Below are positions 1,178 to 54,807 of a DNA stretch of 64,000 nucleotides, piece after piece. The stretch is from Candidatus Nomurabacteria bacterium (GTDB taxonomy: Bacteria > Patescibacteriota > Minisyncoccia > Phycocordibacterales > UBA918). A program made the translations under genes and the position numbers. The notes beneath the pieces are model-generated. The model did not search any database. It was not told where the DNA came from and was given only the letters and a program-made list of their open reading frames with translations. Numbering within the stretch: the stretch's first letter is position 1; each line of letters starts with the position of its first letter. The stretch spans positions 893,932-957,931 of the forward strand of contig CP060227.1 in the NCBI GenBank assembly GCA_023898525.1, read 5' to 3'.

Positions 1178-1212
1178 GCAAAAGCCCCGCGCCGTAGGCG
1201 CGGGGCTTTTGC
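1178..1212. terminator. Rho-independent terminator, a perfect GC-core palindrome with a GTA loop
   Basis: gcaaaagccccgcgcc-gta-ggcgcggggcttttgc; the same core recurs at 45695, 47927 and (variant) 54763. Confidence 0.7.
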
Positions 1213-5116: not shown

Positions 5117-5189
5117 GCTTGGGTAGCTCAGTTGGTAGAGCGCTTCCCTGAAGAGGAAGATGTCGTCGGTTCGAGCCCGACCCCAAGCA
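5117..5189 (+). tRNA. tRNA-Phe (anticodon GAA)
   Basis: GCTTGGGTAGCTCAGTTGGTAGAGCGCTTCCCTGAAGAGGAAGATGTCGTCGGTTCGAGCCCGACCCCAAGCA forms a canonical cloverleaf with anticodon loop CTGAAGA. Confidence 0.9.
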
Positions 5190-5242
5190 CTGGTATATAA
5201 AAAGTCTCTATATAGAGACTTTTTATATACCAGTGCTTGGGG
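5181..5242. repeat. 62-nt perfect palindrome that incorporates the 3' acceptor strand of tRNA-Phe
   Basis: ccccaagcactggtatataaaaagtctctat | atagagactttttatataccagtgcttgggg; the arms are exact reverse complements. Confidence 0.85.
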
Positions 5243-21669: not shown

Positions 21670-24600
21670 GTGCCCACCCTCCACCACCTCCTCCAAACCA
21701 CCCTCACCTTCCTCTTCACCCTCACCCTCTCTTTTGTCAGTGTATACATCCCTCAACCATACCACCAAGTCAACCACGCCGAAGCCGGAGTCGCCACCTT
21801 CAGTGGTCAGTTGATGGGTCTGGCCGAACAAGCCGTCAGTGCCGCCGCCAACGTGATGTCAGCGGCTATTGAGTCGGTCATCAGATTCAAGGAACTAGTC
21901 TGGGACCCCTTAGCCTGGAGTGTGGCCAAGGGCATGATCGCTGTCATGACTGCCAGTGTGGTCAGGTGGATCAACTCCGGTTTCCAAGGTTCCCCCGCCT
22001 TTGTCCAAGACCTGGAATACTACCTCTCCCGGGTTGGAGACCGAGTCTTTGGTGAATTCGTCAACGAACTCGGTATCGCCCCCTTTGTCTGCCGCCCCTT
22101 TAGACTTGACCTCCAAATCGCCCTCAACATCGGCTACCAAAGACACTACCGCGCCGGTTACCCAATTGGCGCCACCTACTGCAGCCTCGAAGGTGCTCTT
22201 GCCAACATCGACAACTTTGTTAACGGTAGCTTCAATGACGGTGGTTGGGACACTTGGTACACTGTCACCACCAGACCCAACACCTATACCCCCTATGGTA
22301 ACTTCCTCTCCGTCAGTGGTGAAGCGGCTCTCAGAATCAACAACCAACAAGTTAACGCCACCCGTTTCCTAAACTTCGGTGACGGTTTCATGTCCAAAGC
22401 CATCTGTTCCCAAATCCCCCTCATCACCGGCGGAGCGATCACCAGAGAACGTTGTGCTGTCTCCACTCCGGGACAAGTCATCAACCAAACTCTTAACCAC
22501 CACCTTGGGGCCGGTCTCGACAGTCTCATTGCCGCTGATGAGATCGGTGAGATCATTGGAGCTCTGGTGGGCCAACTGGCACAAAAGTCCCTGGAAGGCG
22601 CGGCCGGACTCCTTGGTCTCTCCGGTGGCACCGGCTACACCGACCCTAGCTACGGTACCTCCTACCTGGATGCTGCTATTACCCAGCAAGCCGCTAGCTC
22701 CTCTGAAGCGGTGGCCCAAGCTGACCAACTCTCCAACAACACCTACAACCAAGCCGCCAACCAAGCCGAACAACAAGGACAACAAAGAGCTGATAATGCA
22801 CAGGCGGGAGCGGATAGTACGACGAATACTGGTATTGATACTACTAATATAGACCAAGCTCTCCAGAATTTGATTGATATTCTTGGTGGGGGTGGTACCA
22901 TAATCACCCCAACTGACCCTAACACCACCACCCCACCAATTGGTCTTAGTGGTCCAATTGGACCGCAACCCGTCGCCGCTACTCCACTTTCCAGTGGTAC
23001 CATCTTCGCTGCCCCTAACGGTTCTGGTACCGCTTGTACCGAAGTGATACCGTGTACCATCCAAACCGCGATTGATAAAGCTAGAGCCGGGGATGTGGTG
23101 TTCTTATTTGGAGGAACGTATCAAGTATCTAAAAATATCGACTTCAACAACCAAGGTACCGCTGCTAATCCAGTGATCTATGAGAGTTATCCGGGGGAGA
23201 AGGCGGTGTTTGATGGGAGTACTTCACCTCAATCAAGTTGGGCTCAGATGCGCATCAGTGGTAATTTTATCTACATAAGAGGAATGGTTATTAGGGAGAT
23301 GCCGAAAAAAGGTTTAGAAGTCCTTGGAGCTGACAATCTAATTGAAGGTATGGAGGTTTATAACAATACTCTATCAGGTATTCAAATACAGGCTGGGGAT
23401 GGAGCTGGTACCACAGTAGCGTCACGAAACATCATTCGCAACAATATTGTTCGAGACAATTCAGCTGCTGGTTTGTTCGAGGCTGTATACAACGATGGTG
23501 GTAATACAGATGGTATTGCTATTAGTTATGGTTATGATAATAGAATAGAAAACAATCTGGTGTACAGGAACTCTGATGATGGTATAGACACATGGCGAGG
23601 TGTTCGAAGTTATGTAGGGTATAACATTTCTTACTCAAACGGCATAGCTAAGGGCGAAGGTAATGGTGTCAAAGCTGGCGGATCTTCTCCAAGTAAAGAT
23701 ACGGTAGTAGAGCGCAACTTGGTATATTCAAACAAGAGCAACGGTATTAATTATAATTCTGGAGTAAACGTAACAATGTCATACAACACCACATGGAATA
23801 ACGGATTAGTGGGTTACAAGGTTGGTTCAGATACTATTCTTACTAAGAATATTTCGTCTGGTGGAGTTGAGAAGAATGGTGCTGGTATCGAAAGCAACAA
23901 CTCCTGGCAACGCTCCGGTACCGTCCAGTTCATCAGTACCGACCCTAACTCACCTGACTTCTTAAGACCGACAGTTGGAGGAGGATTTGAGGATATTGGA
24001 GTATATGCTGGGACCACTGCAGTTAGTCCTAGTCAACCTTCTACTGTGCCGGTGGACGTGTATCTAATCGGTGATTCCACTGTGTCTAGTGGTTCAGGTT
24101 GGGGTGATTTCCTTAAGGATTACTTACGAACTGAGGCAACTGTAATTAACGCGGCAATTAGTGGCAGAAGTAGCAAGTCTTACTACGATGAGGGTAGTTT
24201 CAACTCAGTTCGTAGCTCTCTAGCCCCTGGTGATTATTTACTAATCCAATTTGGACATAATGATCAGCATCTTGATGATATTCATTACACAAATCCAGGC
24301 ACTGCACCGGCATACAACGGAACTTTTCGTGATTATCTCGAACTTTATATAAATGAGGCCCGTGCCAAAGGTGCAATACCGGTTTTAATTACTCCCGTCA
24401 GTCGCATGGTTTTTACCTCAACCGATCAACATATTCGATCACATGGAGAATACGCTCCAGCTGTTCGTAAGATTGCGGCTGATAACAATGTGATCCTTTT
24501 GGATCTAGAAGAACGTAGTCACCAGGTGTTCAATAATTTAGGAGAAACTCAAACATTACAACTATATGCCGGTTATGGTGGTACTTTTGATGACAGAACC

Positions 24601-28111: not shown

Positions 28112-28679
28112 CCCTTACTTACAAGGTATCTGAAGAATTTAAACGAGATAAGTCTCAATTGGTGAACCATACCGCGCCACATCTCGAACTTTTGATACAA
28201 AACCGAATGATAGTTCAAAGAAAATATTCAAGTTGATACATGACAAAGAACCACCAGACAGGTCAGAACCAAAAGCGGCATAACCAAACTTTTTCATATC
28301 TATTATGTTATCAAGTTGAGTCTAATGTGATAAGAGGAGAAAAAAGTTGTTTCTGGTATAATTTAGATGGGCTAACGCTCATTTACTATTAATTTCATGT
28401 ATATGATATTCATAGAAAAATTTGAGCTAGTTCCTACAATATTCGGCTAGTCATCCACAAAAGTGTGGAATTTGATCATTGCTAATCAGTGAGCAAGAGA
28501 TCGTACACCATACTCTGACTTTTTTGTCTAGCGGTGAGTATGATACGACCGGGGCTAGAGCATGACGAATATCGTGATGTGGGAAGATGTATCATGTTGC
28601 ATAAGCCCAAAAAGCAGTATACGGAATACTGCGGAACATAGCTCCTAAAAACCACCATAAGGTGGTTTTTAGTTTCTGG

Positions 28680-29310: not shown

Positions 29311-29865
29311 CTTTACCCCGCATGCTTGTCATCGGGGGAAACACTGTCATACTAAACAGTAATGAAAGGTAAACCACAACATATCAAAAAACCACACAAC
29401 AAAACTCTGTTCATCTATCATCTGGTATGCCCAGTAAAATACAGAAGAGATGTATTTACACCACCAATATCAAAAACATTTAAAAACTTATGTTTGGAAT
29501 TTGGTCCAGCTTACGAGATATACTTTCTTGAAATAGGAATAGACGAAGATCATGTACACTTTTTAATACAAACAATTCCAAACATACGTTTCTCTGATAC
29601 GGTAAAGAAAATAAAAAGCATCACCTCCAATCATCTCTTTAAAATCCACCCTGAACTAAAAATAAAACTCTGGGGAGGAAAGTTCTGGACTGAAGGTTAT
29701 TATGCAAATACAGTGGGTAATGCCAGTATGGATATTATTACCAATTACGTTAAAAACCAAGGTTATCCCGAATACCAACAGCTACACTCCGCACCAGTTC
29801 AGACTTCACTGTTTACTACCTAGTCCAACGCCGATACCCCGCATGCTTGTCATCGGGGTAGTTCA
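29311..29865 (+). mobile_element. IS200/IS605-family (IS200-like, tnpA-only) insertion sequence with subterminal hairpins
   Basis: The same imperfect palindrome ccccgcatgcttgtcatcgggg occurs at both ends (29315-29338 and 29837-29858). The internal gene is a Y1 HUH transposase. Confidence 0.6.
29362..29823 (+). CDS. tnpA: IS200-like Y1 (HUH) transposase TnpA
   Basis: YHLVCPVKYRR, HVHFLIQ (HxH) and WGGKFWTEGYYANTVG signatures. Confidence 0.8.
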   Translation: MKGKPQHIKKPHNKTLFIYHLVCPVKYRRDVFTPPISKTFKNLCLEFGPAYEIYFLEIGIDEDHVHFLIQTIPNIRFSDTVKKIKSITSNHLFKIHPELKIKLWGGKFWTEGYYANTVGNASMDIITNYVKNQGYPEYQQLHSAPVQTSLFTT

Positions 29866-30060: not shown

Positions 30061-30499
30061 TAAAAGTCAAAGGTTTATTTCAATAGTTCGATTCCCGGTA
30101 GGGTTCAACCATTATTTTCAGTTGCTGCAACTTTTATACCCATAACCCAAAACACAACATCGCCCTTAAAATAAGGGCAATGTTGTGTTTTGGGTGACAA
30201 TTTGCACTGGTGGCAAGTTATCTAGTCGTTGTGAACCATACCGAGCCACATCTCGAACTTTTGTTGCAAAATCCAGTAATAGCTCGAAAAAGATATTTAA
30301 ACTTATACATGACAAGGAACCAGCTGGTAATGAATAGGAGAAACAAACTACTTAACACTATTTATGAATCTTTATACATACTCTCAAAAAATGTATAACC
30401 TGGATAGGATGGAGAAGATGCATCAATGGTAATTTCCATCACAACCTCATCGTCCTCTTGACTGCTATATTGTGTATGCTTTGATATACTGATGGTCGT

Positions 30500-31321
30500 A
30501 TGTCTATCTCCCTTACATCAACTGAAAAAGAAGTTATCTATCTTGTCGCAGTGATTGAATCTATTGATTCAGTGGTTAACAATGTTATTTTTGAACTTAT
30601 TGGAGATGATACTCAGTCACAAATCTTGTTTCGTGACGAAAATGCACAACGCTTGTTTAATATATATCTCGTAGACTTCCTGTCTACCACTGATAAACAT
30701 AAACATGCACCTGTTCCAAGAAAGTCTTATCTAAAAGCACTCCATGAAATTACTGAAAACCCAACTTTTTCGAATGACATGATTAAAAATCTTAAACTCT
30801 CCGTCAATTCGTTTAAAGAATGGTTGGATGCAGAGGTGTCCGTTAAAGTCTATTTTCCTTCAATTAATTATGATGGTGAGATACGATTATCTAGATCGTT
30901 ATTTATTAAAATGTGTGGAAATTTATCTAAACACAATATTCTGCGATCAGTGGGTATCGCGATAGATATTATGGATGTTTTAGAGAAGGAAGGTGTTCAG
31001 ATTACAAAGGAAGAATCAATGTTTGTATTGAATGAATTCTATGAGTGGTTTCATGACGATATCCTCAACTATCACGGAACCACAATCGTAGAATTTCTCA
31101 ACAATATTCGTTGGGATATTTACGAATACTTAAAGACTGAGCATCAAGGTAGTATTACTTGGGACTATAATTCTGACCCCAAGAGATATGCATACAACAT
31201 CCCACCAGGAATAGAAAGTGATTTTGGAAAAAAGTGGTATTGGAGTCTTATGAACAAGGTTAAACATCCACCGCACATTAGACAATTCATAGCAACGGAA
31301 TTTTCAAAAAATGGATTTTGA
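30500..31321 (+). CDS. Hypothetical protein that flanks the island on the left
   Basis: 273-aa ORF; no recognisable domain. Confidence 0.3.
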   Translation: MSISLTSTEKEVIYLVAVIESIDSVVNNVIFELIGDDTQSQILFRDENAQRLFNIYLVDFLSTTDKHKHAPVPRKSYLKALHEITENPTFSNDMIKNLKLSVNSFKEWLDAEVSVKVYFPSINYDGEIRLSRSLFIKMCGNLSKHNILRSVGIAIDIMDVLEKEGVQITKEESMFVLNEFYEWFHDDILNYHGTTIVEFLNNIRWDIYEYLKTEHQGSITWDYNSDPKRYAYNIPPGIESDFGKKWYWSLMNKVKHPPHIRQFIATEFSKNGF

Positions 31322-31510
31322 CATACTAATCAAATGTATAAAAACACTACTCCCTTTACTTTACTGACTCAATCAAGTCTGAATTAGAGTCATATGACTG
31401 GTTCGATTCCCCTTAAGGTATGAAATTTTGAATCAAAATTTGCACTTTTGGTAATCAAAATATGGCTTATTTTAATGTTGGATGGATAGAAATGTTACCA
31501 AAAATAACAT

Positions 31511-31754
31511 TCCTCTCTATGTGATGTATTAGCGCACCGCGCTCTAACTCACTACATCGCGAAGCGGTGAACCAACAACGCGCGGAGCGCGTGGTGATGC
31601 GGACGTGAAGCGTACGCATTCGGGAACCTCTGCGCGCCTCGCTGCCTCGCTCCACTCGGCCCCCAAAACCAAAGAAATTTCCTTACAATCATTTTTTCGG
31701 TGGAGGGGTCTGGGGAGGAGCCGACATAAAAAGGAAAGGATATTTCTTTGGTTT
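31511..31754. repeat. GC-rich long inverted repeat, copy A (about 244 bp), the left boundary of the R-M module
   Basis: Exact reverse complement of 36601-36845 on base-by-base comparison. Confidence 0.9.
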
Positions 31755-32100
31755 GGGATCGCCGCTTCGTCCTCCAAAAAGCTCCGTTTCAGTCTCCATT
31801 TATTTGAGAGTCTTCCACTTCGCTTTTCTCCGTACTCGCGGCGTGCGAGGCGCGCTCCCGTAGCGTACCCGCGTGGTAATTCTAGCGTTCGCTCACCACA
31901 CTCTAGCACCTCCGCACTGCTCGCTCGCTTCGCTCGCGCGAGCTGCTGCGGTGCTTCCGTGTGTGAGCTTGGTGGCTTCGGTTGGGTTCGTGGTTTTCAA
32001 AGTGGTTTGCGCTGACGCGCAAGCAAGTCTGTATGTGCTTGTCCCACCCTCCCAATACGCGCACAAACAACCCCGCCTAGCGTCGGGGTTGTTGCTCCCT

Positions 32101-33720
32101 CTAATTCTTTTTTAGGATTTTTTCCTTTCCGACCAAGTTTAGGATTTTCGGGGAAGCGTCTTTTAGAGAAATCAATGTCAATTTCTTTTTCGCCCGTGTT
32201 ATCCCGACTAAAAATTCACATATTTTATGATCAGTAAACTTCTTGGTGTCCTTATCTAAAATATGTTCATCATCTATTCCTACATAATACACAAAATCCG
32301 CAGAGAGTCCCTTGGAGCTCGTAACAGTAGTTAGCTCAACTTCTATAGCGTCTTTTTTATTTGACTCAAAACCTCTGACAATCTTTGTCAGGATATTTTT
32401 TAGATTAAAAATTTTACTAAATCGTTCTAACTCTGTCTTGCTCAGTTCTTTTTTGCCAGTTTTAACCTTTTTGAAAATATTGATATCTTCTTCTATTTTT
32501 CCTTTTATGCCATCATCTAGACAATTCCATATTTTCTTTTGTTTCTCATTACTTTCATTTATAACCTCCTTCCTTTTTGTCTCATCTAAATACAAGGGTA
32601 AAATCTTCCTAAGAGCCAAATTATCAGTCTTCCTTTTTAGAAGAATTTCGAATACTTCACATAGCTTCCTGTGTTTAATTTTATTTCGCTCCTCGTTAGA
32701 AAACAATTCAACACCAACAACGGTAAATCCTTTTTTCATCAAACCCTCATATACAGTTTGTTTTAGATATGATGGCGTTAAAATCAGTACTCTCTGTTTA
32801 TCTTTGTACTCCTCAAGATCTTCTTCAATCATTTTTGACAATCTGTACGCAAGTTGATTTCCGATTACCGAGGGTACAAAAGTTATTTGTGCATATTTCT
32901 TACTTTCTTCATCTTTGTGTCCCTCTGGATACAAGAACTCCTTTTCCAGTCTTTCGTCCAAACATCCATTTGTTTTTGCATTCCGTATCAAATCATTAGT
33001 AGTCTCTATGATAACTTTTGGACATCTATAACAATAATCCAGCGAAAATCCTTCAGTGTCACCGTCGTTGTATAAACTTCTTATTTGAGATGGCTTTGCC
33101 TGTTTAAAATGGTACAGAGACTGGTCGTCATCACCAACTAAGATCACAGTACTCTGTTTGTTGAGAAATTTTATCAGCTCATACTCCGATTTATTGAAGT
33201 CTTGGAATTCATCAACTAAAATCAGATCGTACGTTGGTATCTTTGACTCATTTTGTTGAAAAAGAAGATTTGCAGCGTAAACAACTGAATTAAATGAATA
33301 TAATTTTCCGTTTGAGCTGTAGAATTCCTTTCTCTGTTTGTAGAACTCTTTTTCGTTATCAGTCAAATCGTTATCATGAAACTTTTTCTCGTAGTTAATT
33401 TTACTGCCGTGAATAAAAGAGTAGTCTTCACTTATATACTTGTCTAAATCCTCATCTAAATCACAATCTTCTTCTTTGACGAGTATGCTTCTGGCGAAAG
33501 CATGTAATGTTGAGACATCAACGTTGGGAAAATCGTTAAACTCCTCAGATAAATCATCAATAAGTTTATTTATAAAAGATAATATAAGTATTTTCTTACC
33601 TTTATATTCCTCTGATTTAATTATAGTCCCAAATGTAAAACTTTTACCGGTTCCAGGTCCAGCTAATCCGACAAACAACTTTTTATCTGACTGTTTTATT
33701 TTTTCTAGAATATCAGTCAT
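32101..33720 (-). CDS. UvrD/Rep-like superfamily-1 helicase
   Basis: Walker A GLAGPGTGKS, Walker B/motif II LILVDEFQD, motif III VGDDDQSLY, and a C-terminal UvrD_C-like region. Confidence 0.7.
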   Translation of the reverse strand: MTDILEKIKQSDKKLFVGLAGPGTGKSFTFGTIIKSEEYKGKKILILSFINKLIDDLSEEFNDFPNVDVSTLHAFARSILVKEEDCDLDEDLDKYISEDYSFIHGSKINYEKKFHDNDLTDNEKEFYKQRKEFYSSNGKLYSFNSVVYAANLLFQQNESKIPTYDLILVDEFQDFNKSEYELIKFLNKQSTVILVGDDDQSLYHFKQAKPSQIRSLYNDGDTEGFSLDYCYRCPKVIIETTNDLIRNAKTNGCLDERLEKEFLYPEGHKDEESKKYAQITFVPSVIGNQLAYRLSKMIEEDLEEYKDKQRVLILTPSYLKQTVYEGLMKKGFTVVGVELFSNEERNKIKHRKLCEVFEILLKRKTDNLALRKILPLYLDETKRKEVINESNEKQKKIWNCLDDGIKGKIEEDINIFKKVKTGKKELSKTELERFSKIFNLKNILTKIVRGFESNKKDAIEVELTTVTSSKGLSADFVYYVGIDDEHILDKDTKKFTDHKICEFLVGITRAKKKLTLISLKDASPKILNLVGKEKILKKN

Positions 33721-33724
33721 GGAT

Positions 33725-34471
33725 TTATTTCTGAAACACGAACAAATGTTCGTGCATTATTAGCAAGAAATTGCTTTCTTTTGATTTGTTAACCCAAAAA
33801 CCAGTCGCTTTGCAGTTGTATTGTCGCTTGATGATGTCTTCCTTGAGATCAAAACCAGCGTTTAGAAAGCGATCCATAACACGATATGCAAGCGGTTGAT
33901 ACATTTTTTGTCGACGGGTGTCACCAATCAGAATCGCACAAAATTTTCCTGGTTTTAAGACGCGGTACAGTTCTTTTGCAACCTTTTCCATTTCGTCGGC
34001 AAATTCTTCAATTCCGTGGATGTTTGAAAGATCTTCGTTAATTTCTCCTTCACTGTATTTGATTATGTCAGCGTAGGGCGGGTGTGTGAGAATAAAATCA
34101 ATGCTCTCATTCTCGGCTTTGACGAGGTTGCGCGCGTCACGTTTTGCCACTTTTTGCCAAGCTTTGTTCTCAACGGGAAACTTCAAACTTTCTTTCGTTC
34201 GCTCCAAGGCAACATCGTTTACATCTGAACAAATGATATTGCGGTTGAGTATTTTTGCTTCAATCGCTGTCGTACCACCACCAATCATTGGATCAAGCAA
34301 AATATCACCCTCGTTGGAGTAACGGAGAATAAGATTGCGCGCGACTTCTGGTGACCAGTTGCCGCGCCAGTCTGACTTATGCGTTGCCCAATTCCCGCGA
34401 CGAGGAAAAGCCCACACCGTCGTGCATTCAAGATCAAATTCATCGGGGTGTAGTTTCATTTCCTTTGCCAT
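33725..34471 (-). CDS. Beta-class N6-adenine/N4-cytosine DNA methyltransferase (DpnA / M2.DpnII-like)
   Basis: Motif order is SAM-binding DPMIGGGTT and then the catalytic THPPY (DPPY-like), as in PF01555 methyltransferases. Confidence 0.75.
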   Translation of the reverse strand: MAKEMKLHPDEFDLECTTVWAFPRRGNWATHKSDWRGNWSPEVARNLILRYSNEGDILLDPMIGGGTTAIEAKILNRNIICSDVNDVALERTKESLKFPVENKAWQKVAKRDARNLVKAENESIDFILTHPPYADIIKYSEGEINEDLSNIHGIEEFADEMEKVAKELYRVLKPGKFCAILIGDTRRQKMYQPLAYRVMDRFLNAGFDLKEDIIKRQYNCKATGFWVNKSKESNFLLIMHEHLFVFQK

Positions 34472-34475
34472 TGTT

Positions 34476-35336
34476 TTACCAAGTTAGTTCATTGAGTACG
34501 TCGTCCTCAAGCATTTTGAGATTAAAAACTTGACCTTTGTTGTGTTCAAAAGTTTCTTCAAGTGGTCGCTTTGTGGTTTCCCAGCCGAGTCCGTCTGTAA
34601 CCCAAACAAAATCAATATCTTGTTTTGTTAGCTCGTCATATAAACTACGGAATTCGCCACACACCGCCTTTAGTTTTGAGCCACCTCCGTTATAGAAGTT
34701 TGTCTCAAACAATTTTAGTTTTTTGGTCTGTGGATTGTATACAGCGAAATCAAAGCTTCGTTCTGATTTATCGACATTTATTTCGTAGCTCCATTTGGCT
34801 TTGATGTCGGTTGCTCGTGCTTGGGCGATGTATTCAAAGCCACGTTTTTCTGAAAAATCTTTGACGTACGATTCCACAATTTCTTCCATGAGTGTTCCTC
34901 CACGGTTTTTTCGTCCGTTGCTATCCAACCCAACCTCGACTCCCATAACATAATCGACAAGATTTTTGATTCCATCTTTTTGGAAAAGGCGAGCAAGCCC
35001 AGATTTTTCGATAAACTCGAAATACTTTTCGGCACCATCTTCTCCGTTGGAGAAATCGAAAAACTCCGAATCTTTGGTGACCTTATCAAAAATCTCAAGT
35101 TTGTTTTCGCGTACTGCTAACAAGACAGGCAACGCTTTTACAATATCAGGATTTGATTCGTAGAGCTTTGCAAATTCTTCCGTTAGATTTTCCTTGCCGA
35201 GCAAGTAATTGAGTTTGTTTAGGGAAATCTCAAGATCAGTGGCGTTTGTGGTAACTTTGTCCCAATTTACAAAATAATCCCATGTTTTTATGGAGCTTTT
35301 GAAACCGTCCACCAGTTCTGTAAATGTTTTGTTCAT
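34476..35336 (-). CDS. DpnII/MboI-family type II restriction endonuclease (GATC-type)
   Basis: Blocks LNYLLGK, IKNLVDYVMGVEVGLDSNGRKNRGG, ETNFYNGGGSKL and FVWVTDGLGW are as I remember them from the DpnII family; the length is 286 aa. Confidence 0.65.
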   Translation of the reverse strand: MNKTFTELVDGFKSSIKTWDYFVNWDKVTTNATDLEISLNKLNYLLGKENLTEEFAKLYESNPDIVKALPVLLAVRENKLEIFDKVTKDSEFFDFSNGEDGAEKYFEFIEKSGLARLFQKDGIKNLVDYVMGVEVGLDSNGRKNRGGTLMEEIVESYVKDFSEKRGFEYIAQARATDIKAKWSYEINVDKSERSFDFAVYNPQTKKLKLFETNFYNGGGSKLKAVCGEFRSLYDELTKQDIDFVWVTDGLGWETTKRPLEETFEHNKGQVFNLKMLEDDVLNELTW

Positions 35337-35341
35337 ATCAT

Positions 35342-36298
35342 TCAGTAATTAGTTACTAATACCTCGCTAATCTTTCCGCGCTTTGCGGCGTTTGAGTTTA
35401 TTGCACGTCCTGCAGCGACTTTCGACACTTTTACGCCTTTGATTCCCGAGTAGAGTTTGTTAATGAAAGGAGTGTCAGAGTTAGAAAGCATGACGTAACA
35501 ACCGCGTTTGTGTAATTCGAAAAATGTATCTCTCAATTCCGCTTGCTCCTTGTCCAAGAATGAATCTGCAGTGTACGAAGTGAAAGACGCCGTCTTGCTC
35601 ACGGGATAGTATGGCGGATCAAAATATACAAAGTCTTCTTTCTTTGCTTTTTTAAGTACCGCTTTGTAGTCTTGGTTTTTAACGGTGACTTTTTGCAATG
35701 CTTTTGACACTTTGCGCAAGTTTTCCTCGTCGCAAATTATAGGGTTTGTATATTTACCAAACGGTACATTGAAACCGCCTTTGCTGTTGACTCGGTACAT
35801 TCCATTGAAACAAGTTCGGTTTAGGAAAATAAAACGTGACGCAACATCAATATCTGACAATGCTTTTGGATCCCTTGCGCGCACTTCAAGGTAATACTCT
35901 TTTTCGTATTTGTGTTTTTTGAGAGATTTAATCAGTGCATCAACGTCATTTTTAATGACGTTATAGGTTACTACAAGTTCGTTGTTTAGATCTGAAAGTT
36001 CTGCTTTTTTTGGGAGAAGATCGAAAAAGACAGCACCTCCACCAACAAACGGTTCAAAGTAAGTATTTGTGACAGGATCAAAATCATCTGGTGGGTATAA
36101 CCCCATATCGCGGAATTGTTGGAGGAGTTGTCTTTTCCCACCAACCCATTTCACAAACGGCTTCGGCTTCTCATTAACAATTCGAGTAGCGTCCTCAAAC
36201 AATCGTGTTTTGTCTGCATTATGGAAAACATGATGCGCGTAGATTTTGTTGATATTTAACTCATGTGCGAGTTTTGTGATTGTTTGTTGCGTAGTCAT
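35342..36298 (-). CDS. Dam-like (alpha-class, D12) N6-adenine DNA methyltransferase (DpnM-like)
   Basis: VKWVGGKRQLL, FEPFVGGGAVFF and DPPYYP motifs. Confidence 0.8.
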   Translation of the reverse strand: MTTQQTITKLAHELNINKIYAHHVFHNADKTRLFEDATRIVNEKPKPFVKWVGGKRQLLQQFRDMGLYPPDDFDPVTNTYFEPFVGGGAVFFDLLPKKAELSDLNNELVVTYNVIKNDVDALIKSLKKHKYEKEYYLEVRARDPKALSDIDVASRFIFLNRTCFNGMYRVNSKGGFNVPFGKYTNPIICDEENLRKVSKALQKVTVKNQDYKAVLKKAKKEDFVYFDPPYYPVSKTASFTSYTADSFLDKEQAELRDTFFELHKRGCYVMLSNSDTPFINKLYSGIKGVKVSKVAAGRAINSNAAKRGKISEVLVTNY

Positions 36299-36302
36299 AA
36301 CT

Positions 36303-36506
36303 TTATTTTAGCAGTTCTGTGGTGCTAACTCCGAGTACCTTAGCTAGTTTGGAAATTGTCTCAAGGGTGGGGTTTGTTTTTCCGTTTTCGATATTGCTGA
36401 CATAACTGCGACTACAACCCATACCGCGCATAACATCACCTTGAGACATCCTTTTCGCTTCGCGAATCCTTTTCAAATTATTGCCGAGTTTTGTGGAATC
36501 ATTCAT
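36303..36506 (-). CDS. XRE-family HTH regulator, probably the controller (C) protein of the R-M operon
   Basis: 67 aa; LKRIREAKRMSQGDVMRGMGCSRSYVSNIENG is a classic XRE HTH. It is the first gene of the co-oriented cluster. Confidence 0.65.
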   Translation of the reverse strand: MNDSTKLGNNLKRIREAKRMSQGDVMRGMGCSRSYVSNIENGKTNPTLETISKLAKVLGVSTTELLK

Positions 36507-36600
36507 TCACACAATTATACCCAACTCTTACATTATACACGACTATTATATTTTAGTATAATAGGGTAATGGTGGAGAAAATGATTTTTAGGGACTCATT

Positions 36601-36845
36601 GCGGCGATCCCAAACCAAAGAAATATCCTTTCCTTTTTATGTCGGCTCCTCCCCAGACCCCTCCACCGAAAAAATGATTGTAAGGAAATTTCTTTGGTTT
36701 TGGGGGCCGAGTGGAGCGAGGCAGCGAGGCGCGCAGAGGTTCCCGAATGCGTACGCTTCACGTCCGCATCACCACGCGCTCCGCGCGTTGTTGGTTCACC
36801 GCTTCGCGATGTAGTGAGTTAGAGCGCGGTGCGCTAATACATCAC
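36601..36845. repeat. GC-rich long inverted repeat, copy A' (the partner of 31511-31754)
   Basis: See copy A. Confidence 0.9.
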
Positions 36846-36954
36846 CAATCGAAACAAACTCGGGAGCAAGGCCGCCTGCGGCGGCTATGGGGGCAATATG
36901 GCGGCGGCGTGCCGCCGCGCCCTGGGCAAAAGCAGCCTTTGTTTCTGCCACGCA
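36842..36954. repeat. GC-rich inverted repeat, copy B (about 113 bp), immediately upstream of the recombinase start
   Basis: Exact reverse complement of 38424-38536. Confidence 0.9.
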
Positions 36955-36986
36955 CTGCGTAATCCCAAAGTGAAACCCAGTACATT

Positions 36987-38594
36987 ATGAAAGAACTCAA
37001 ACCAAAATATGTTCTCTACGCTCGCAAGAGTACGGAAGATGATGATAAACAAGTAATGAGTATTGAAGCTCAGTTAGTTGAGTTGCATGAGTTTGCGCGT
37101 AGAGAACAACTTGAAATCCTATCGGAGTTTCAAGAGTCAAAAAGCGCAAAGACGCCCGGGCGTGAGACGTTTGGTGAGATGATGGCGTTTATTGAAAATC
37201 ATAACGAGCCACTTGGTATTCTCGCGTGGCACCCCGATCGTCTCGCTCGCAATTCGATAGACGGTGGGCGTATCGTGTATGCAGTGGACACAGGGAGTAT
37301 CGCGTCTTTGCGCTTTCCGACCTTTTGGTTTGAGCCAACGCCGCAAGGAAAGTTCATGTTGCAAGTGGCGTTCGGTCAGTCGAAATATTTTTCGGATAAC
37401 TTAGTAGAAAACGTGAAGCGTGGAATGCGCCAAAAACTTCGCCGTGGTGAATGGTTGACCAAAGCCCCGTTTGGGTATGTGAACAATCCAAAGACTCGCA
37501 ATATCGAACCGCATCCTGTGTATTCAAAGATTGTGGTGCGGGGCTTTGAAGAATATGCCAAAGGCACATACACCATAGAATCATTGGCGAAGTTTTTGGC
37601 TGACCTCGGTTTGGAAACCAAGAACCGAACACCACTTGGCAAAGCTTCCATTGTGCGGATGCTTTCTAACCGAGCGTATATCGGATTTATCAAATACAAA
37701 GATGAATGGCACGAAGGAAGCTTTGCGCCGATTATCACTCCCACACTGTTTGAAGCAGTCCAAAAGGTGCTCGAAACAAAACGGCGGCCTCGGGTACAGA
37801 AAGAACCACATAATTTTCCACTCACGCAGTTTGCCGAGTGCGGTGAGTGTGGCGGCATGATAACTGCTCAGTACACTACTAACAGGCATGGTACGAAGTA
37901 TGCGTATTATCGCTGTACTCAAAAGAAAGGATCATGCCGCCAACCGTACGTGGCCACCGCTTTGTTGGAGACACAAGTGAATGACATGCTTCAAACAGTT
38001 GCACTGCCGTCAGTGGAGATAGACAAGATTGATGGGTGGATTGTACGCTGGGAGCGTGAACAAACCGCTGATGACGGCAGTGCTGCCCGAGACCTTAAAA
38101 ATGAGATTGCGAGCGTGCAAGAGAAGCTTGATCGCTTAGTTTCTCTGTACCTTGATGGCGATATAGAGCGCGATAGTTATCTCGACCGCAAAGACAAGCT
38201 GATGCGCGAAAAAACGACGCTCGCTGAGAAATTGAATGGTCTCGGGCGTGGGAGTGATAATCGGCTCCAACCCTTGCGGCGTTTCGTTTTGTCTTTAAGA
38301 GAAGCCGTGAATTTGATAGAGAGCGGTGAGATGCACGAAAAACGTGACTTTCTGAAAAAGCTCGGCTCTAACCCTTCTCTTAAAGACAAAACACTTTCAT
38401 TGCACTGGGATGCACTTTGGGATGGCGTGGCAGAAACAAAGGCTGCTTTTGCCCAGGGCGCGGCGGCACGCCGCCGCCATATTGCCCCCATAGCCGCCGC
38501 AGGCGGCCTTGCTCCCGAGTTTGTTTCGATTGGTGACCCTACGGGGAATCGAACCCCGATTTGCAGGATGAGAACCTGCTGTCCTAGCCGTTAG
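36987..38594 (+). CDS. Large serine recombinase (resolvase domain + recombinase domain + zinc ribbon + coiled coil). The C-terminal ~55 aa are encoded by repeat B' and the tRNA-Glu 3' region and are probably not native
   Basis: N-terminal YARKSTEDDD..S (catalytic Ser region), Cys-rich CGECGG...YYRC zinc ribbon, then a coiled-coil. The tail is Ala/Gly/Arg-rich and comes from GC-rich repeat DNA. Confidence 0.8.
   Translation: MKELKPKYVLYARKSTEDDDKQVMSIEAQLVELHEFARREQLEILSEFQESKSAKTPGRETFGEMMAFIENHNEPLGILAWHPDRLARNSIDGGRIVYAVDTGSIASLRFPTFWFEPTPQGKFMLQVAFGQSKYFSDNLVENVKRGMRQKLRRGEWLTKAPFGYVNNPKTRNIEPHPVYSKIVVRGFEEYAKGTYTIESLAKFLADLGLETKNRTPLGKASIVRMLSNRAYIGFIKYKDEWHEGSFAPIITPTLFEAVQKVLETKRRPRVQKEPHNFPLTQFAECGECGGMITAQYTTNRHGTKYAYYRCTQKKGSCRQPYVATALLETQVNDMLQTVALPSVEIDKIDGWIVRWEREQTADDGSAARDLKNEIASVQEKLDRLVSLYLDGDIERDSYLDRKDKLMREKTTLAEKLNGLGRGSDNRLQPLRRFVLSLREAVNLIESGEMHEKRDFLKKLGSNPSLKDKTLSLHWDALWDGVAETKAAFAQGAAARRRHIAPIAAAGGLAPEFVSIGDPTGNRTPICRMRTCCPSR
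38424..38536. repeat. GC-rich inverted repeat, copy B' (the partner of 36842-36954)
   Basis: See copy B; it ends within the CCA end of tRNA-Glu. Confidence 0.9.
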
Positions 38595-38605
38595 ACGATA
38601 GGGCC
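38531..38605 (-). tRNA. tRNA-Glu (anticodon CTC) with an encoded CCA
   Basis: Reverse complement GGCCCTATCGTCTAACGGCTAGGACAGCAGGTTCTCATCCTGCAAATCGGGGTTCGATTCCCCGTAGGGTCACCA forms a cloverleaf with anticodon loop TTCTCAT. Confidence 0.8.
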
Positions 38606-45694: not shown

Positions 45695-45747
45695 TCATGA
45701 TTTTAAAAAGCCCCGCGCCGTAGGCGCGGGGCTTTTTAAAATCATGA
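45695..45747. terminator. Bidirectional terminator, a 53-nt perfect palindrome with a GC core
   Basis: tcatgattttaaaaagccccgcgcc-gta-ggcgcggggctttttaaaatcatga; the right arm contains the stop codon of the ABC permease gene. Confidence 0.75.
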
Positions 45748-47926: not shown

Positions 47927-47967
47927 AACAAAACACCCTGCGCCGTAGGCGCGGGGTGTTTTGTTAC
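47927..47967. terminator. Rho-independent terminator from the same GC-core/GTA-loop family
   Basis: aacaaaacaccctgcgcc-gta-ggcgcggggtgttttgtt. Confidence 0.7.
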
Positions 47968-54762: not shown

Positions 54763-54807
54763 TTGAGTAAAAAGGGCGGCACCGTAGGTGCCGCCCTTTT
54801 TACTCAA
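54763..54807. terminator. Terminator, a 45-nt perfect palindrome with a GTA loop
   Basis: ttgagtaaaaagggcggcacc-gta-ggtgccgccctttttactcaa. Confidence 0.75.

What the first reader, a model, noticed from the sequence alone, without database searches (positions are those of the whole stretch)
31511..36845. Base-perfect ~244-bp inverted repeats bracket the entire R-M/helicase module (candidate invertible or foldback element)
Positions 31511-31754 are the exact reverse complement of 36601-36845. I compared the full length by eye and saw no mismatch. The repeats are GC-rich and non-coding; the only ORFs in them are mirror-image artefacts. They flank exactly the five-gene cassette together with a unique 345-bp GC-rich leader (31755-32100). 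Perfect identity over 244 bp implies recent duplication or ongoing gene conversion or inversion. With a serine recombinase gene immediately adjacent, the cassette may flip orientation, which would phase-vary R-M expression. Alternatively the repeats are the terminal inverted repeats of a foldback-type transposon that carries the R-M system as cargo. Inverted repeats of this length around a whole R-M operon are unusual.
Basis: seen in the sequence. Interest (0 to 1): 0.8.

Follow-up and report, generated by a model that had tools for sequence, protein, structure and literature searches.

The report
Recombinase island with doubled attachment site
The perfect 245-bp inverted repeat is real, but rather than a flip-switch for the restriction genes it looks like one half of a doubled, mirror-image attachment site of a 7-kb recombinase-driven island inserted at the end of a tRNA gene, a layout that recurs in dozens of ultra-small (CPR) bacteria and that my literature searches did not find described.

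Summary
The repeat exists.

It abuts the first, brackets the large serine recombinase (LSR) gene, and ends inside the 3' end of tRNA-Glu.

All three junctions share TCAC. They read as attL, an intact inverted attP-like site, and attR. This defines a 7,016-bp element (31521-38536) inserted at the discriminator/CCA position of tRNA-Glu.

The layout arm-cargo-arm / arm-LSR-arm / tRNA recurs widely:
- 69 of 72 evaluable homologous LSR genes have their own flanking repeat.
- At least 24 loci also have the cargo-flanking repeat.
- Cargo and tRNA targets differ between loci.

A sister element carries the same DpnII restriction-modification (R-M) cassette on a different LSR backbone. A related complete genome has the matching empty site.

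Cargo orientation is almost invariant, and the R-M promoter region lies inside the segment. R-M phase variation is therefore not supported.

Best reading: the element carries a duplicated, inverted attP region, and integration split one of the two copies. How the duplication is used remains inferred.

Novelty: new variant of a known kind. Interest 0.62.

The parts
31489..31524 (.). J1 (attL-like): host flank b1 (weak hairpin, presumed native tRNA-Glu terminator) joined to arm A at core GTGA (31521-31524)
   Evidence: Reads ...cattcctctctat|GTGA|TGTATTAGCGC. In the L085/L126 pair the equivalent flank is the tRNA's terminator hairpin.
31521..31765 (.). Arm A, the left copy of the 245-nt perfect inverted repeat. 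From outer to inner end: core, p1 motif, terminator-like hairpin 31578-31592 (minus strand), imperfect palindrome 31663-31757
31766..32100 (+). GC-rich non-coding leader, with a conserved covarying hairpin at about 31905-31955
   Evidence: Homologues sit just inside the distal arm in 11 elements. Hairpin pairs 166/198, 167/197 and 174/189 each show 4 compensatory changes. 89% identical to L085. No Rfam match.
32101..33720 (-). UvrD-like superfamily 1 helicase (cargo)
   Evidence: Pfam UvrD-helicase 5e-22, AAA_19, UvrD_C. Replaced by an unrelated 732-aa gene in L085.
33725..34471 (-). N6_N4 DNA methyltransferase (cargo, second methylase of the R-M system)
   Evidence: Pfam N6_N4_Mtase 6e-26.
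34476..35336 (-). DpnII-family restriction endonuclease (cargo)
   Evidence: Pfam DpnII 1.9e-91.
35342..36298 (-). D12-class N6-adenine DNA methyltransferase (cargo)
   Evidence: Pfam MethyltransfD12 7.6e-66.
36303..36506 (-). HTH controller (C) protein of the R-M operon
   Evidence: Pfam HTH_3 8e-19.
36507..36600 (-). AT-rich upstream region of the C gene, with TATAAT-like motifs on the minus strand. It lies inside the unique segment
   Evidence: Read directly from the sequence.
36601..36845 (.). Arm A', the right copy of the 245-nt repeat. It ends with the p1 motif and core
36818..36870 (+). J2, an intact attP-like site: GCGCTAATACA|TCAC|CAATCGAAACAAACTC (core 36842-36845), inverted relative to J1 and J3
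   Evidence: Family consensus GTTCGnGCaAaggnTAtaATtaca|tCAC|caanaGAaAC.
36842..36953 (.). Arm B, the left copy of the 112-nt perfect repeat. Imperfect extension to 36993 covers the LSR start codon
36987..38594 (+). Large serine recombinase ORF (535 aa). The conserved part ends near aa 479. The tail is encoded by arm B' and by antisense tRNA-Glu
   Evidence: Pfam Resolvase, Recombinase and Zn_ribbon_recom. Alignment. PDB relatives are A118 and SPbeta integrases.
38425..38536 (.). Arm B', the right copy of the 112-nt repeat
38531..38605 (-). tRNA-Glu(CUC). J3 (attR-like) core GTGA is at 38533-38536. Read on the tRNA's own strand, the gene's last six bases (TCACCA, including the TCAC core) lie within arm B'

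Best explanation
The 245-bp repeat is a by-product of how a 7,016-bp integrative element (31521-38536) is built. The element encodes a large serine recombinase (LSR) and sits at the 3' end of tRNA-Glu(CUC). The crossover lies in TCAC: the last two acceptor bases, the discriminator A and the first C of CCA.

The element carries its attachment region twice, in opposite orientations. One copy is intact: U = A'+B, 36601-36953, just upstream of the LSR gene. The other copy was split by integration. Its p1 half (arm A) is now the left end, next to the tRNA's former downstream flank. Its p2 half (arm B') is the right end, fused to the tRNA. As a result A pairs with A' around the cargo, and B pairs with B' around the LSR gene.

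Only J1 and J3 are in direct orientation, so only they can excise the element. Excision would give a circle in which two 353-bp inverted attP regions separate the cargo from the LSR gene.

The arms are kept identical by gene conversion. They appear to have spread inwards as far as selection allows: to the LSR start codon on one side and to the end of its conserved domain on the other.

The intact copy keeps the promoter-like p1 motif next to the LSR gene after integration. The cargo is a self-contained, C-protein-controlled DpnII-type R-M operon plus a helicase. It is exchangeable between LSR backbones.

**Shown:** the repeats, the shared core, recurrence of the layout, insertion at the tRNA end (an empty site for the sister element), arm homogeneity, cargo exchange, and fixed cargo polarity.

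**Inferred:** the circular intermediate, that integration used the copy at the 3' end of the LSR gene, gene conversion, the promoter/operator role of J2, and the absence of routine flipping.
For: **Junctions**
- Two abutting perfect inverted repeats overlap by 4 nt.
- J1, J2 and J3 read b1|GTGA|A, A'|TCAC|B and B'|GTGA|tRNA. This gives attB = ...GGG TCAC ATAGAG... and attP = B'|A = the reverse complement of J2.

**The recombinase**
- It has the canonical LSR domains.
- Its closest solved relatives are the A118 and SPbeta integrases.

**Recurrence across the family**
- 69 of 72 evaluable homologues have a flanking repeat: median 131 nt, median identity 99.2%, 29 perfect.
- The right arm ends 3-7 nt inside a convergent tRNA (Glu 33, Ala 12, Leu 12, Phe 2).
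- A second repeat of 154-426 nt overlaps the first by 3-6 nt and brackets 1.4-6.7 kb in 20 listed loci, plus L023, L030, L035, L064, L072 and L085.
- The p1 motif lies upstream of B in nearly all loci, and as an inverted copy at J1.

**Insertion and mobility**
- Empty site: CP070993.1 keeps the order MurF, tRNA-Glu, TCACAAAAAA, terminator hairpin, then the 143-aa, Sua5 and ParB genes. L085 has a 7.6-kb element between TCACAAA and its own terminator hairpin.
- Near-identical p1/p2 sites occur at different tRNAs (L012/L013 at Ala, L025 at Leu).
- One metagenome-assembled genome (MAG) holds three copies (L016, L028, L039).

**Arm homogeneity**
- Arms are 96-100% identical within an element but 80-92% identical between related elements.

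**Cargo**
- Cargo is unrelated between loci.
- The DpnII cassette, the leader and the inner 191 nt of both arms are 85-89% identical to L085. That element's LSR is only about 57% identical in protein (family alignment; 71.5% DNA identity over 948 nt).
- Polarity is fixed.

**Promoter-like p1**
- p1 is the only sigma-70-like match upstream of the LSR gene in L033 and L050. Its -10 ends 4 nt before the core (core positions).
Against: - A circle with two equivalent attP copies should integrate through either copy. That would give the mirror isomer about half the time. Only 2-3 of about 85 loci have the LSR facing away from the tRNA (L015, L044, L074). L074 looks like a flip of the LSR segment alone. 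The bias needs selection or an unseen asymmetry, possibly the leader.
- No circular form was seen, and no empty site was found for the window's own genome.
- p1 and p2 show no dyad symmetry, and the b1 flank is not conserved. Both are atypical for LSR att sites.
- About a third of loci with at least 2.5 kb of upstream sequence show no left arm A within reach. For some, such as L058, the cargo simply exceeds the fetched flank.
- In the window itself the p1 -10 is degenerate (GCTAAT).
- No recombination directionality factor is evident.
Confidence: 0.62

Rival explanations
1. Two-segment invertible system, shufflon- or Hin/Cin-like. The LSR routinely inverts the cargo segment (J1xJ2) and its own segment (J2xJ3). 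The long repeats exist because crossover sites lie at their outer ends. Flipping regulates the LSR and/or the R-M system.
For: - The crossover core lies at the outer end of both repeat pairs. The inner half-sites are identical and the outer halves differ, as in hixL/hixR and the P1 C segment (comparison from established knowledge).
- Core polarity permits inversion between J1/J2 and J2/J3 (reasoned).
- The recombinase gene lies inside one segment.
- The LSR segment is found in the opposite orientation in L074, and probably in L015 and L044.
- Flipping the LSR segment would uncouple the gene from p1.
Against: - Cargo polarity is nearly invariant: cargo next to A' is on the minus strand in all 20 elements, the leader sits at the distal arm in 11 of 11 elements, and several assemblies of one population agree.
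- The R-M promoter region is internal and the arms are identical, so inversion changes no expression context.
- Flipped LSR segments are rare (at most 3 of about 85). Ordinary homologous recombination between 112-140-bp repeats could explain them.
- Characterised LSRs recombine attP with attB, not attP with attL or attR (established knowledge).
- Inversion alone explains neither insertion at different tRNAs nor the empty site.
Confidence: 0.15
2. Two separate elements bounded by terminal inverted repeats, accreted at one site. One is a recombinase-less cargo ('foldback') cassette, A-X-A'. The other is an IS-like LSR unit, B-LSR-B'. Each moves on its own.
For: - The inner 191 nt of both A arms, the leader and the R-M genes are shared with L085 on a different LSR backbone.
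- L064 carries two tandem cargo modules, each starting with inner arm plus leader.
- In L001 an LSR unit has a non-p1 left flank.
Against: - A conservative serine recombinase cannot excise a segment bounded by inverted sites with a non-palindromic core. The overhangs would not pair (reasoned and the established mechanism).
- p1 is linked to B in nearly every locus.
- The outer 54 nt of the A arms follow the LSR lineage, not the cargo.
- The whole A' arm is a conserved backbone module across 9 elements with different cargo.
- No transposase and no target-site duplication.
- Cargo exchange is explained equally well by homologous recombination within the conserved arms.
Confidence: 0.1
3. Assembly artefact, or a one-off recent duplication with no function.
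For: Perfect identity and GC-rich composition can result from misassembly of repeats.
Against: - The same bipartite layout with different sequences occurs in more than 20 independent assemblies, including closed genome CP060229.1 and a 715-kb scaffold.
- A raw-read Logan contig breaks exactly at the repeat boundary.
- The arms co-vary within elements.
Confidence: 0.01

Closest known systems
Transposon-type large serine recombinase elements (Tn4451/TnpX, Tn5397/TndX) and LSR genomic islands such as SCCmec/Ccr
   Same: A single LSR gene at one edge of a small cargo-carrying element. Site-specific insertion, and probably excision as a circle without an obvious directionality factor. Domain architecture is Resolvase + Recombinase + Zn ribbon.
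   Different: Those elements have a single attP and only short or no inverted repeats (from my knowledge). This one keeps a second, intact, inverted attP-like site plus 112-426-bp perfect arms. It targets the discriminator/CCA end of tRNAs, and the LSR ORF runs into the tRNA antisense.
Phage serine integrases (A118/LI, SPbeta SprA, Bxb1, phiC31)
   Same: Closest solved structures. The attL/attP/attR logic with a short shared core fits the three junctions.
   Different: Not phage-borne: essentially absent from IMG/VR, best hit 41% identity. No recombination directionality factor. The half-sites lack visible dyad symmetry and the b1 half of attB is not conserved.
Invertible segments with serine invertases (Salmonella Hin, Mu Gin, P1 Cin C segment with 0.6-kb inverted repeats)
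   Same: A recombinase next to or inside a segment bounded by inverted repeats, with crossover sites at the outer ends of the repeats (P1 C segment, from my knowledge).
   Different: Those use small invertases with a Fis enhancer, and they switch gene expression or tail-fibre ends. Here the enzyme is an LSR, the cargo has a fixed orientation, and nothing outside the segment depends on orientation.
Yeast 2-micron plasmid (FLP/FRT within 599-bp inverted repeats)
   Same: The predicted excised circle (about 7 kb) would have two perfect inverted repeats. Each would contain the recombinase target, and together they would split the circle into two unique segments, one encoding the recombinase.
   Different: Tyrosine recombinase, eukaryotic plasmid, and inversion used for copy-number amplification. 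No replication genes are present here, and the circle has not been observed.
tRNA-targeting genomic islands and tycheposons (Prochlorococcus)
   Same: Small cargo islands at tRNA 3' ends, some using LSRs, with highly variable cargo that includes defence genes.
   Different: Those leave a direct partial tRNA repeat. Here the junctions share only 4-7 nt, and the internal architecture is a double inverted repeat.

Membership tests
Large serine recombinase (LSR) | N-terminal resolvase catalytic domain, Recombinase domain and zinc-ribbon domain with a coiled-coil insert | tested here: met
   Pfam PF00239 (5e-20), PF07508 (1.4e-12) and PF13408 (7e-9). PDB hits to A118 and SPbeta integrases. Invariant YARKS(T) and other catalytic-domain columns in 28 homologues.
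Site-specific integrative element at a tRNA gene | Insertion at one precise position of the tRNA with the gene's 3' end restored by the element | tested here: met
   On the tRNA's own strand, arm B' supplies TCACCA. The right arm ends 3-7 nt inside the tRNA in 58 of 59 loci with a called tRNA.
Site-specific integrative element at a tRNA gene | Occupied and empty versions of the same site in related genomes | tested here: met
   Met for sister element L085 against CP070993.1 (L126), with synteny conserved on both sides. Not found for the window's own species.
Site-specific integrative element at a tRNA gene | Excised circular form with a reconstituted attP | not testable with these tools
   The circle junction B'|A is sequence-identical to the internal J2 over 353 nt, so contig searches cannot tell them apart. 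No read data were available.
Phase-variable invertible segment (Hin/Gin/Cin type) | Both orientations present | tested here: not met
   Cargo segment: one polarity in 20 of 20 elements for the cargo next to A', and in 11 of 11 by leader position. LSR segment: flipped in at most 3 of about 85 loci. Within-population data were not available.
Phase-variable invertible segment (Hin/Gin/Cin type) | Expression depends on orientation (promoter or gene part outside the segment) | tested here: not met
   The C-gene upstream region 36507-36600 lies inside the segment and both arms are identical.
Phase-variable invertible segment (Hin/Gin/Cin type) | Small serine invertase with a C-terminal HTH | tested here: not met
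   The enzyme is a 535-aa LSR.
Foldback / terminal-inverted-repeat transposon | The repeats are the termini of the mobile unit, with a target-site duplication and a transposase | tested here: not met
   Arm A' is internal. The element ends are A and B'. The junctions share a crossover core rather than a duplication. No transposase lies inside.
DpnII-type Type II R-M system with controller protein | DpnII endonuclease, D12 adenine methylase, a second N6_N4 methylase and a C-protein HTH in one operon | tested here: met
   Pfam hits. The same four-gene set, with identical protein lengths, is present in L085.

The most novel reading that the evidence does not exclude
This LSR family is a distinct class of mobile element. 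Its duplicated, inverted attP region would be a working device rather than a relic. It would leave a live attP and the LSR promoter inside the integrated element. That would let the recombinase act again without a directionality factor, by capturing other tRNA-type sites, swapping cargo modules (inner arm + leader + genes), and driving chromosomal inversions between tRNA genes. The GC-rich arms and leader would be cis-acting RNA or DNA structures that set which attP copy is used. It would also give hundreds of natural LSRs whose intact attP and tRNA-end attB can be read directly from genomes.
Probability: 0.25. Interest if true: 0.8.

Novelty: new variant of a known kind. Interest (0 to 1): 0.62.

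Why it matters
- **Interpretation.** It turns an apparent R-M flip-switch into a defined, recurrent architecture for gene mobility in CPR/Patescibacteria. These bacteria have tiny genomes, and few mobile elements have been characterised in them.
- **Readable sites.** The integrated element keeps an intact attP next to the recombinase gene. Cognate attP and attB (tRNA 3' end) pairs can therefore be read straight from sequence for many LSRs. That is useful for integrase-based genome engineering.
- **Cargo spread.** The layout suggests how defence, metabolic and surface genes are swapped as modules between recombinase backbones.
- **Genome rearrangement.** Multi-copy elements could drive rearrangements between tRNA genes (L019 and L039 have tRNAs on both sides).
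- **Open questions.** What sets the strong orientation bias? What do the conserved GC-rich arms and leader do? Both are experimentally testable.

Tried and rejected
**Searches that found nothing**
- Exact search for the J2 junction in genome contigs: 0 hits.
- Exact search for the b1 flank in metagenome contigs: 0 hits.
- Exact look-up of the LSR protein: not on record. NCBI did not call the gene on this contig.
- IMG/VR scan: no family members, so the element is not phage-borne.
- Rfam at gathering threshold on the whole window, and at E<=10 on 31300-32200: only tRNAs and noise.
- Literature searches: no description of LSR elements with long inverted repeats or a retained inverted attP. Absence in that library is not proof of novelty.

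**Ideas rejected**
- ORFs inside the arms (81-142 aa): no Pfam hit, and indels that break the reading frame. Rejected as genes.
- Dyad symmetry between p1 and p2, or similarity of either to the tRNA half-site: none found by eye. Only a shared TTCG(A/T)TT-like motif, at different distances from the core.
- Independent excision of the cargo or of the LSR segment by the LSR: rejected on strand-polarity grounds.
- A shared accessory gene such as a directionality factor in the cargo: none. Cargo proteins do not cluster between loci.

**Polymorphism and empty-site searches**
- Presence/absence or orientation polymorphism within the L085 population: all contigs show the same arrangement.
- Empty site for the window's own species: only the same genome and short Logan contigs were found.


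Full report
**1. Observation.**

The repeat finder returns arms 31521-31765 and 36601-36845: 245 nt, 100% complementary, 4,835 nt apart. A direct string comparison confirms this, and identity stops abruptly at all four ends. The left arm is 10 nt off, and the leader is 31766-32100 (335 nt).

Arm GC is 0.56 and leader GC is 0.58, against 0.39 for the enclosed genes. The enclosed genes, all on the minus strand, are:
- a controller HTH protein (36303-36506);
- a D12 adenine methylase (35342-36298);
- a DpnII endonuclease (34476-35336);
- an N6_N4 methylase (33725-34471);
- a UvrD-like helicase (32101-33720).

**2.

A second perfect inverted repeat of 112 nt (36842-36953 / 38425-38536) overlaps the first by 4 nt. 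It brackets the adjacent ORF 36987-38594, which is a canonical large serine recombinase (Resolvase + Recombinase + Zn-ribbon). The nearest solved relatives are the A118 and SPbeta integrases.

The right arm ends inside the 3' end of tRNA-Glu(CUC), 38531-38605, minus strand. I call the arms A, A', B and B', the cargo X, and the recombinase segment Y. The three junctions read:
- J1: ...cattcctctctat|GTGA|TGTATTAGCGC
- J2: GCGCTAATACA|TCAC|CAATCGAAAC
- J3: GTTTCGATTG|GTGA|ccctacgggg (antisense tRNA)

This is the pattern expected for attL, attP and attR sharing one core, with the attP-like J2 inverted relative to the other two. Joining the outer flanks gives a plausible attB. It consists of the tRNA-Glu end ...GGGTCAC followed by an AT-rich stretch with a weak hairpin. 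Joining B' to A gives exactly the reverse complement of J2.

The element is therefore 31521-38536 (7,016 bp). It contains two inverted copies of a 353-nt attachment region, and integration has split one of them.

**3. The layout is a family trait.**

The LSR has thousands of homologues in CPR/Patescibacteria. I fetched 80 genome loci and further metagenome loci.
- Of 72 LSR copies with enough flank, 69 have their own inverted repeat. Median length is 131 nt, median identity 99.2%, and 29 are perfect.
- The right arm ends 3-7 nt inside a convergent tRNA: Glu 33, Ala 12, Leu 12, Phe 2.
- The conserved protein ends near residue 479. The rest of the ORF is a variable tail encoded by B', followed by 'DPTGNRT', which is antisense tRNA.
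- In 24 loci the left arm reaches the start codon.
- In 20 loci, plus L023, L030, L035, L064, L072 and L085, a second repeat of 154-426 nt lies immediately left of B. It overlaps B by 3-6 nt and brackets 1.4-6.7 kb, or about 9 kb in L072.
- The junctions share a family consensus: GTTCGnGCaAaggnTAtaATtaca | tCAC | caanaGAaACtT..tcggaA. The core corresponds to the last two acceptor bases, the discriminator A and the first C of CCA.
- The p1 motif is the only sigma-70-like match upstream of the LSR gene in L033 and L050. Its -10 ends 4 nt before the core (core positions). In the window it is degenerate.

**4. Evidence for insertion and mobility.**

The sister element L085 lies on a 715-kb scaffold. 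It sits between tRNA-Glu...TCACAAA and a GC-rich terminator hairpin. MurF is on one side and the 143-aa, Sua5, ParB and RelA genes are on the other.

The related complete genome CP070993.1 keeps both flanks in the same order. There, tRNA-Glu is followed directly by TCACAAAAAATTAG and a terminator hairpin, with no LSR and no R-M. That is an empty site.

Near-identical p1/p2 sites occur at different tRNAs (L012/L013 at Ala, L025 at Leu). One MAG holds three copies (L016, L028, L039). The family is essentially absent from viral contigs.

**5. Cargo.**

Cargo proteins from 20 elements do not cluster with one another. They include R-M, AAA_15/Gabija-like, AdoMet synthetase, seryl-tRNA synthetase, transporter, peptidase and surface-protein families.

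The window's R-M cassette recurs in L085 with the same protein lengths (67, 318, 286 and 248 aa). Homology between the two elements is as follows:

| Window region | Content | Identity to L085 |
|---|---|---|
| 33724-36791 | R-M genes + inner 191 nt of A' | 86.6% |
| 31575-32065 | inner 191 nt of A + leader | 89% |
| 36998-37943 | LSR gene (948 nt) | 71.5% DNA; about 57% protein |
| 32101-33720 | helicase | none (unrelated 732-aa gene in L085) |
| outer 54 nt of A arms, B arms | | not alignable |

So the cargo, with the inner arms and the leader, has been exchanged between LSR backbones.

The whole A' arm is nevertheless a conserved backbone module across nine elements with different cargo. 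Its parts are:
- an inner hairpin, whose loop is flipped in L061 and L049;
- an invariant GCGTACG;
- a CCACCACGCGCTCCGCGCGT hairpin followed by a T-run;
- the p1 motif.

Homologous recombination within the arms can therefore explain the exchange.

**6. Arm homogeneity.**

Arms are 96-100% identical within an element. Between related elements they are 80-92% identical, and each arm is equidistant from both arms of the relative. This is concerted evolution, most simply by gene conversion between the inverted copies. Arm length varies from 154 to 426 nt. The B arms stop at the LSR start codon and at the end of the conserved domain. This looks like repeat expansion limited by selection, which is my inference.

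**7. Is it a switch?**

The evidence is against this for the cargo.
- The C-gene upstream region (36507-36600), with TATAAT-like motifs on the minus strand, lies inside the segment.
- The two arms are identical, and each carries an outward promoter-like motif and a terminator-like hairpin facing the outgoing direction. Orientation therefore changes nothing locally.
- Cargo genes next to A' lie on the strand opposite the LSR in all 20 elements, and wholly so in about 17; L025, L049 and L062 also carry plus-strand ORFs.
- The leader is found just inside the distal arm, in the same orientation, in 11 elements.
- Assemblies of one population from different samples agree.
- Orientation is preserved between the window and L085.

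The LSR segment is occasionally reversed. L074 has LSR, then B'|A, with plus-strand cargo. L015 and L044 have a plus-strand tRNA next to B. L019 and L039 have tRNAs on both sides. Recombination of the internal attP with a second tRNA gene would produce exactly that arrangement.

**8. Mechanism.**

A conservative serine recombinase exchanges strands at a 2-nt overlap. The core is asymmetric, so J1/J2 and J2/J3 (inverted) can only invert. J1/J3 (direct) can excise. Independent excision of X or of Y is therefore excluded on chemical grounds.

Excision of the whole element would give a circle in which two 353-bp inverted attP regions separate X (+leader) from the LSR gene. This topology resembles the 2-micron plasmid. 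After integration through the copy at the 3' end of the LSR gene, the intact copy keeps p1 next to the LSR gene. These steps are inferred and were not observed.

The main weakness is the isomer bias. Two equivalent attP copies should give the mirror isomer half the time, yet it is rare or absent. Possible reasons, all untested:
- selection, because the mirror isomer separates the LSR gene from p1 and exposes it to antisense transcription from the other p1;
- an accessory role for the leader;
- orientation-dependent stability.

Other open points:
- p1 and p2 lack dyad symmetry.
- The b1 half of attB is not conserved.
- No directionality factor is present. Transposon-type LSRs such as TnpX also lack one (from my knowledge).

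**9. Source.**

The window is 100% identical to NCBI GCA_020632175.1 contig JACKGB010000004.1. A short-read Logan contig ends 29 nt inside arm A, which is the expected behaviour at a real repeat.

**10. Verdict.**

The repeat is linked to the recombinase and the cargo is mobile. The repeat is not an R-M phase switch, and it does not mark the termini of a foldback transposon.

It belongs to an apparently undescribed variant of LSR integrative elements with a duplicated, inverted attachment region. The variant is widespread in CPR bacteria. Literature searches found no description of it.

Noticed in passing
window 5181-5242: A perfect 62-nt palindrome with no spacer. Its left arm begins with the last 10 nt of tRNA-Phe (5117-5190), including a GCAC core like the LSR crossover motif. 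It could be a footprint of recombination at a tRNA end, an odd terminator, or an artefact.
   Followed up: no
window 31400-31419 and 30086-30107; L085 3872-3893: Fragments resembling the tRNA-Glu 3' end (18/20 and 18/22 matches) lie on the strand opposite the real tRNA-Glu, 101 nt and about 1.4 kb left of J1. The sister element L085 has the same kind of fragment 41 nt left of its J1, just beyond the terminator hairpin. None was found in the other 18 loci with a full-length tRNA query. These may be relics of earlier events.
   Followed up: partly
window 31766-32100 (hairpin about 31905-31955): A conserved GC-rich non-coding 'leader' lies just inside the distal arm in 11 elements. It contains a hairpin of about 50 nt with compensatory changes at three pairs. 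No Rfam match. Function unknown: possibly a cis-acting RNA, an accessory site or an origin.
   Followed up: partly
window 31663-31757 and 36609-36703; alignment A5: Each arm holds an imperfect palindrome with 22-nt stems and a 51-nt loop containing CCTCCCCAGACCCCTCC. In L061 and L049 the loop is in the opposite orientation while the stems are kept. The unit may itself flip or insert in either orientation.
   Followed up: partly
window 29314-29858: An IS200/IS605-type Y1 transposase gene (29362-29823) is flanked by a perfect 24-nt direct repeat (29314-29337 / 29835-29858). A 92-nt direct repeat of 83% identity lies at 28162-28253 / 30231-30322 around it.
   Followed up: no
window 1180-1210, 45706-45736, 47931-47961, 54770-54800: A 31-nt GC-rich hairpin (AAAAGCCCCGCGCCGTAGGCGCGGGGCTTTT) occurs four times. 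It looks like a terminator or REP-like repeat.
   Followed up: no
L064 4373-9831: Two tandem cargo modules. Each begins with inner-arm and leader sequence. Two inverted p1 copies lie at the far left. The arrangement suggests stepwise accretion of cargo modules.
   Followed up: partly
L001 5062-15363: A TARA scaffold holds two LSR units in direct orientation. LSR1 is 91% identical to the window's LSR. They flank one IR-bounded Type III-like R-M/AAA_15 cassette next to tRNA-Glu. The left unit abuts a hairpin followed by AGG|TCAC rather than p1.
   Followed up: partly
window 36987-38594 (L115 gene table): The NCBI annotation of the source contig lists no gene for the LSR ORF, perhaps because the ORF runs into the tRNA. 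Such recombinases may be under-annotated.
   Followed up: no
window 22001-23000: Local GC of 0.54 against a background of about 0.40. Not examined.
   Followed up: no
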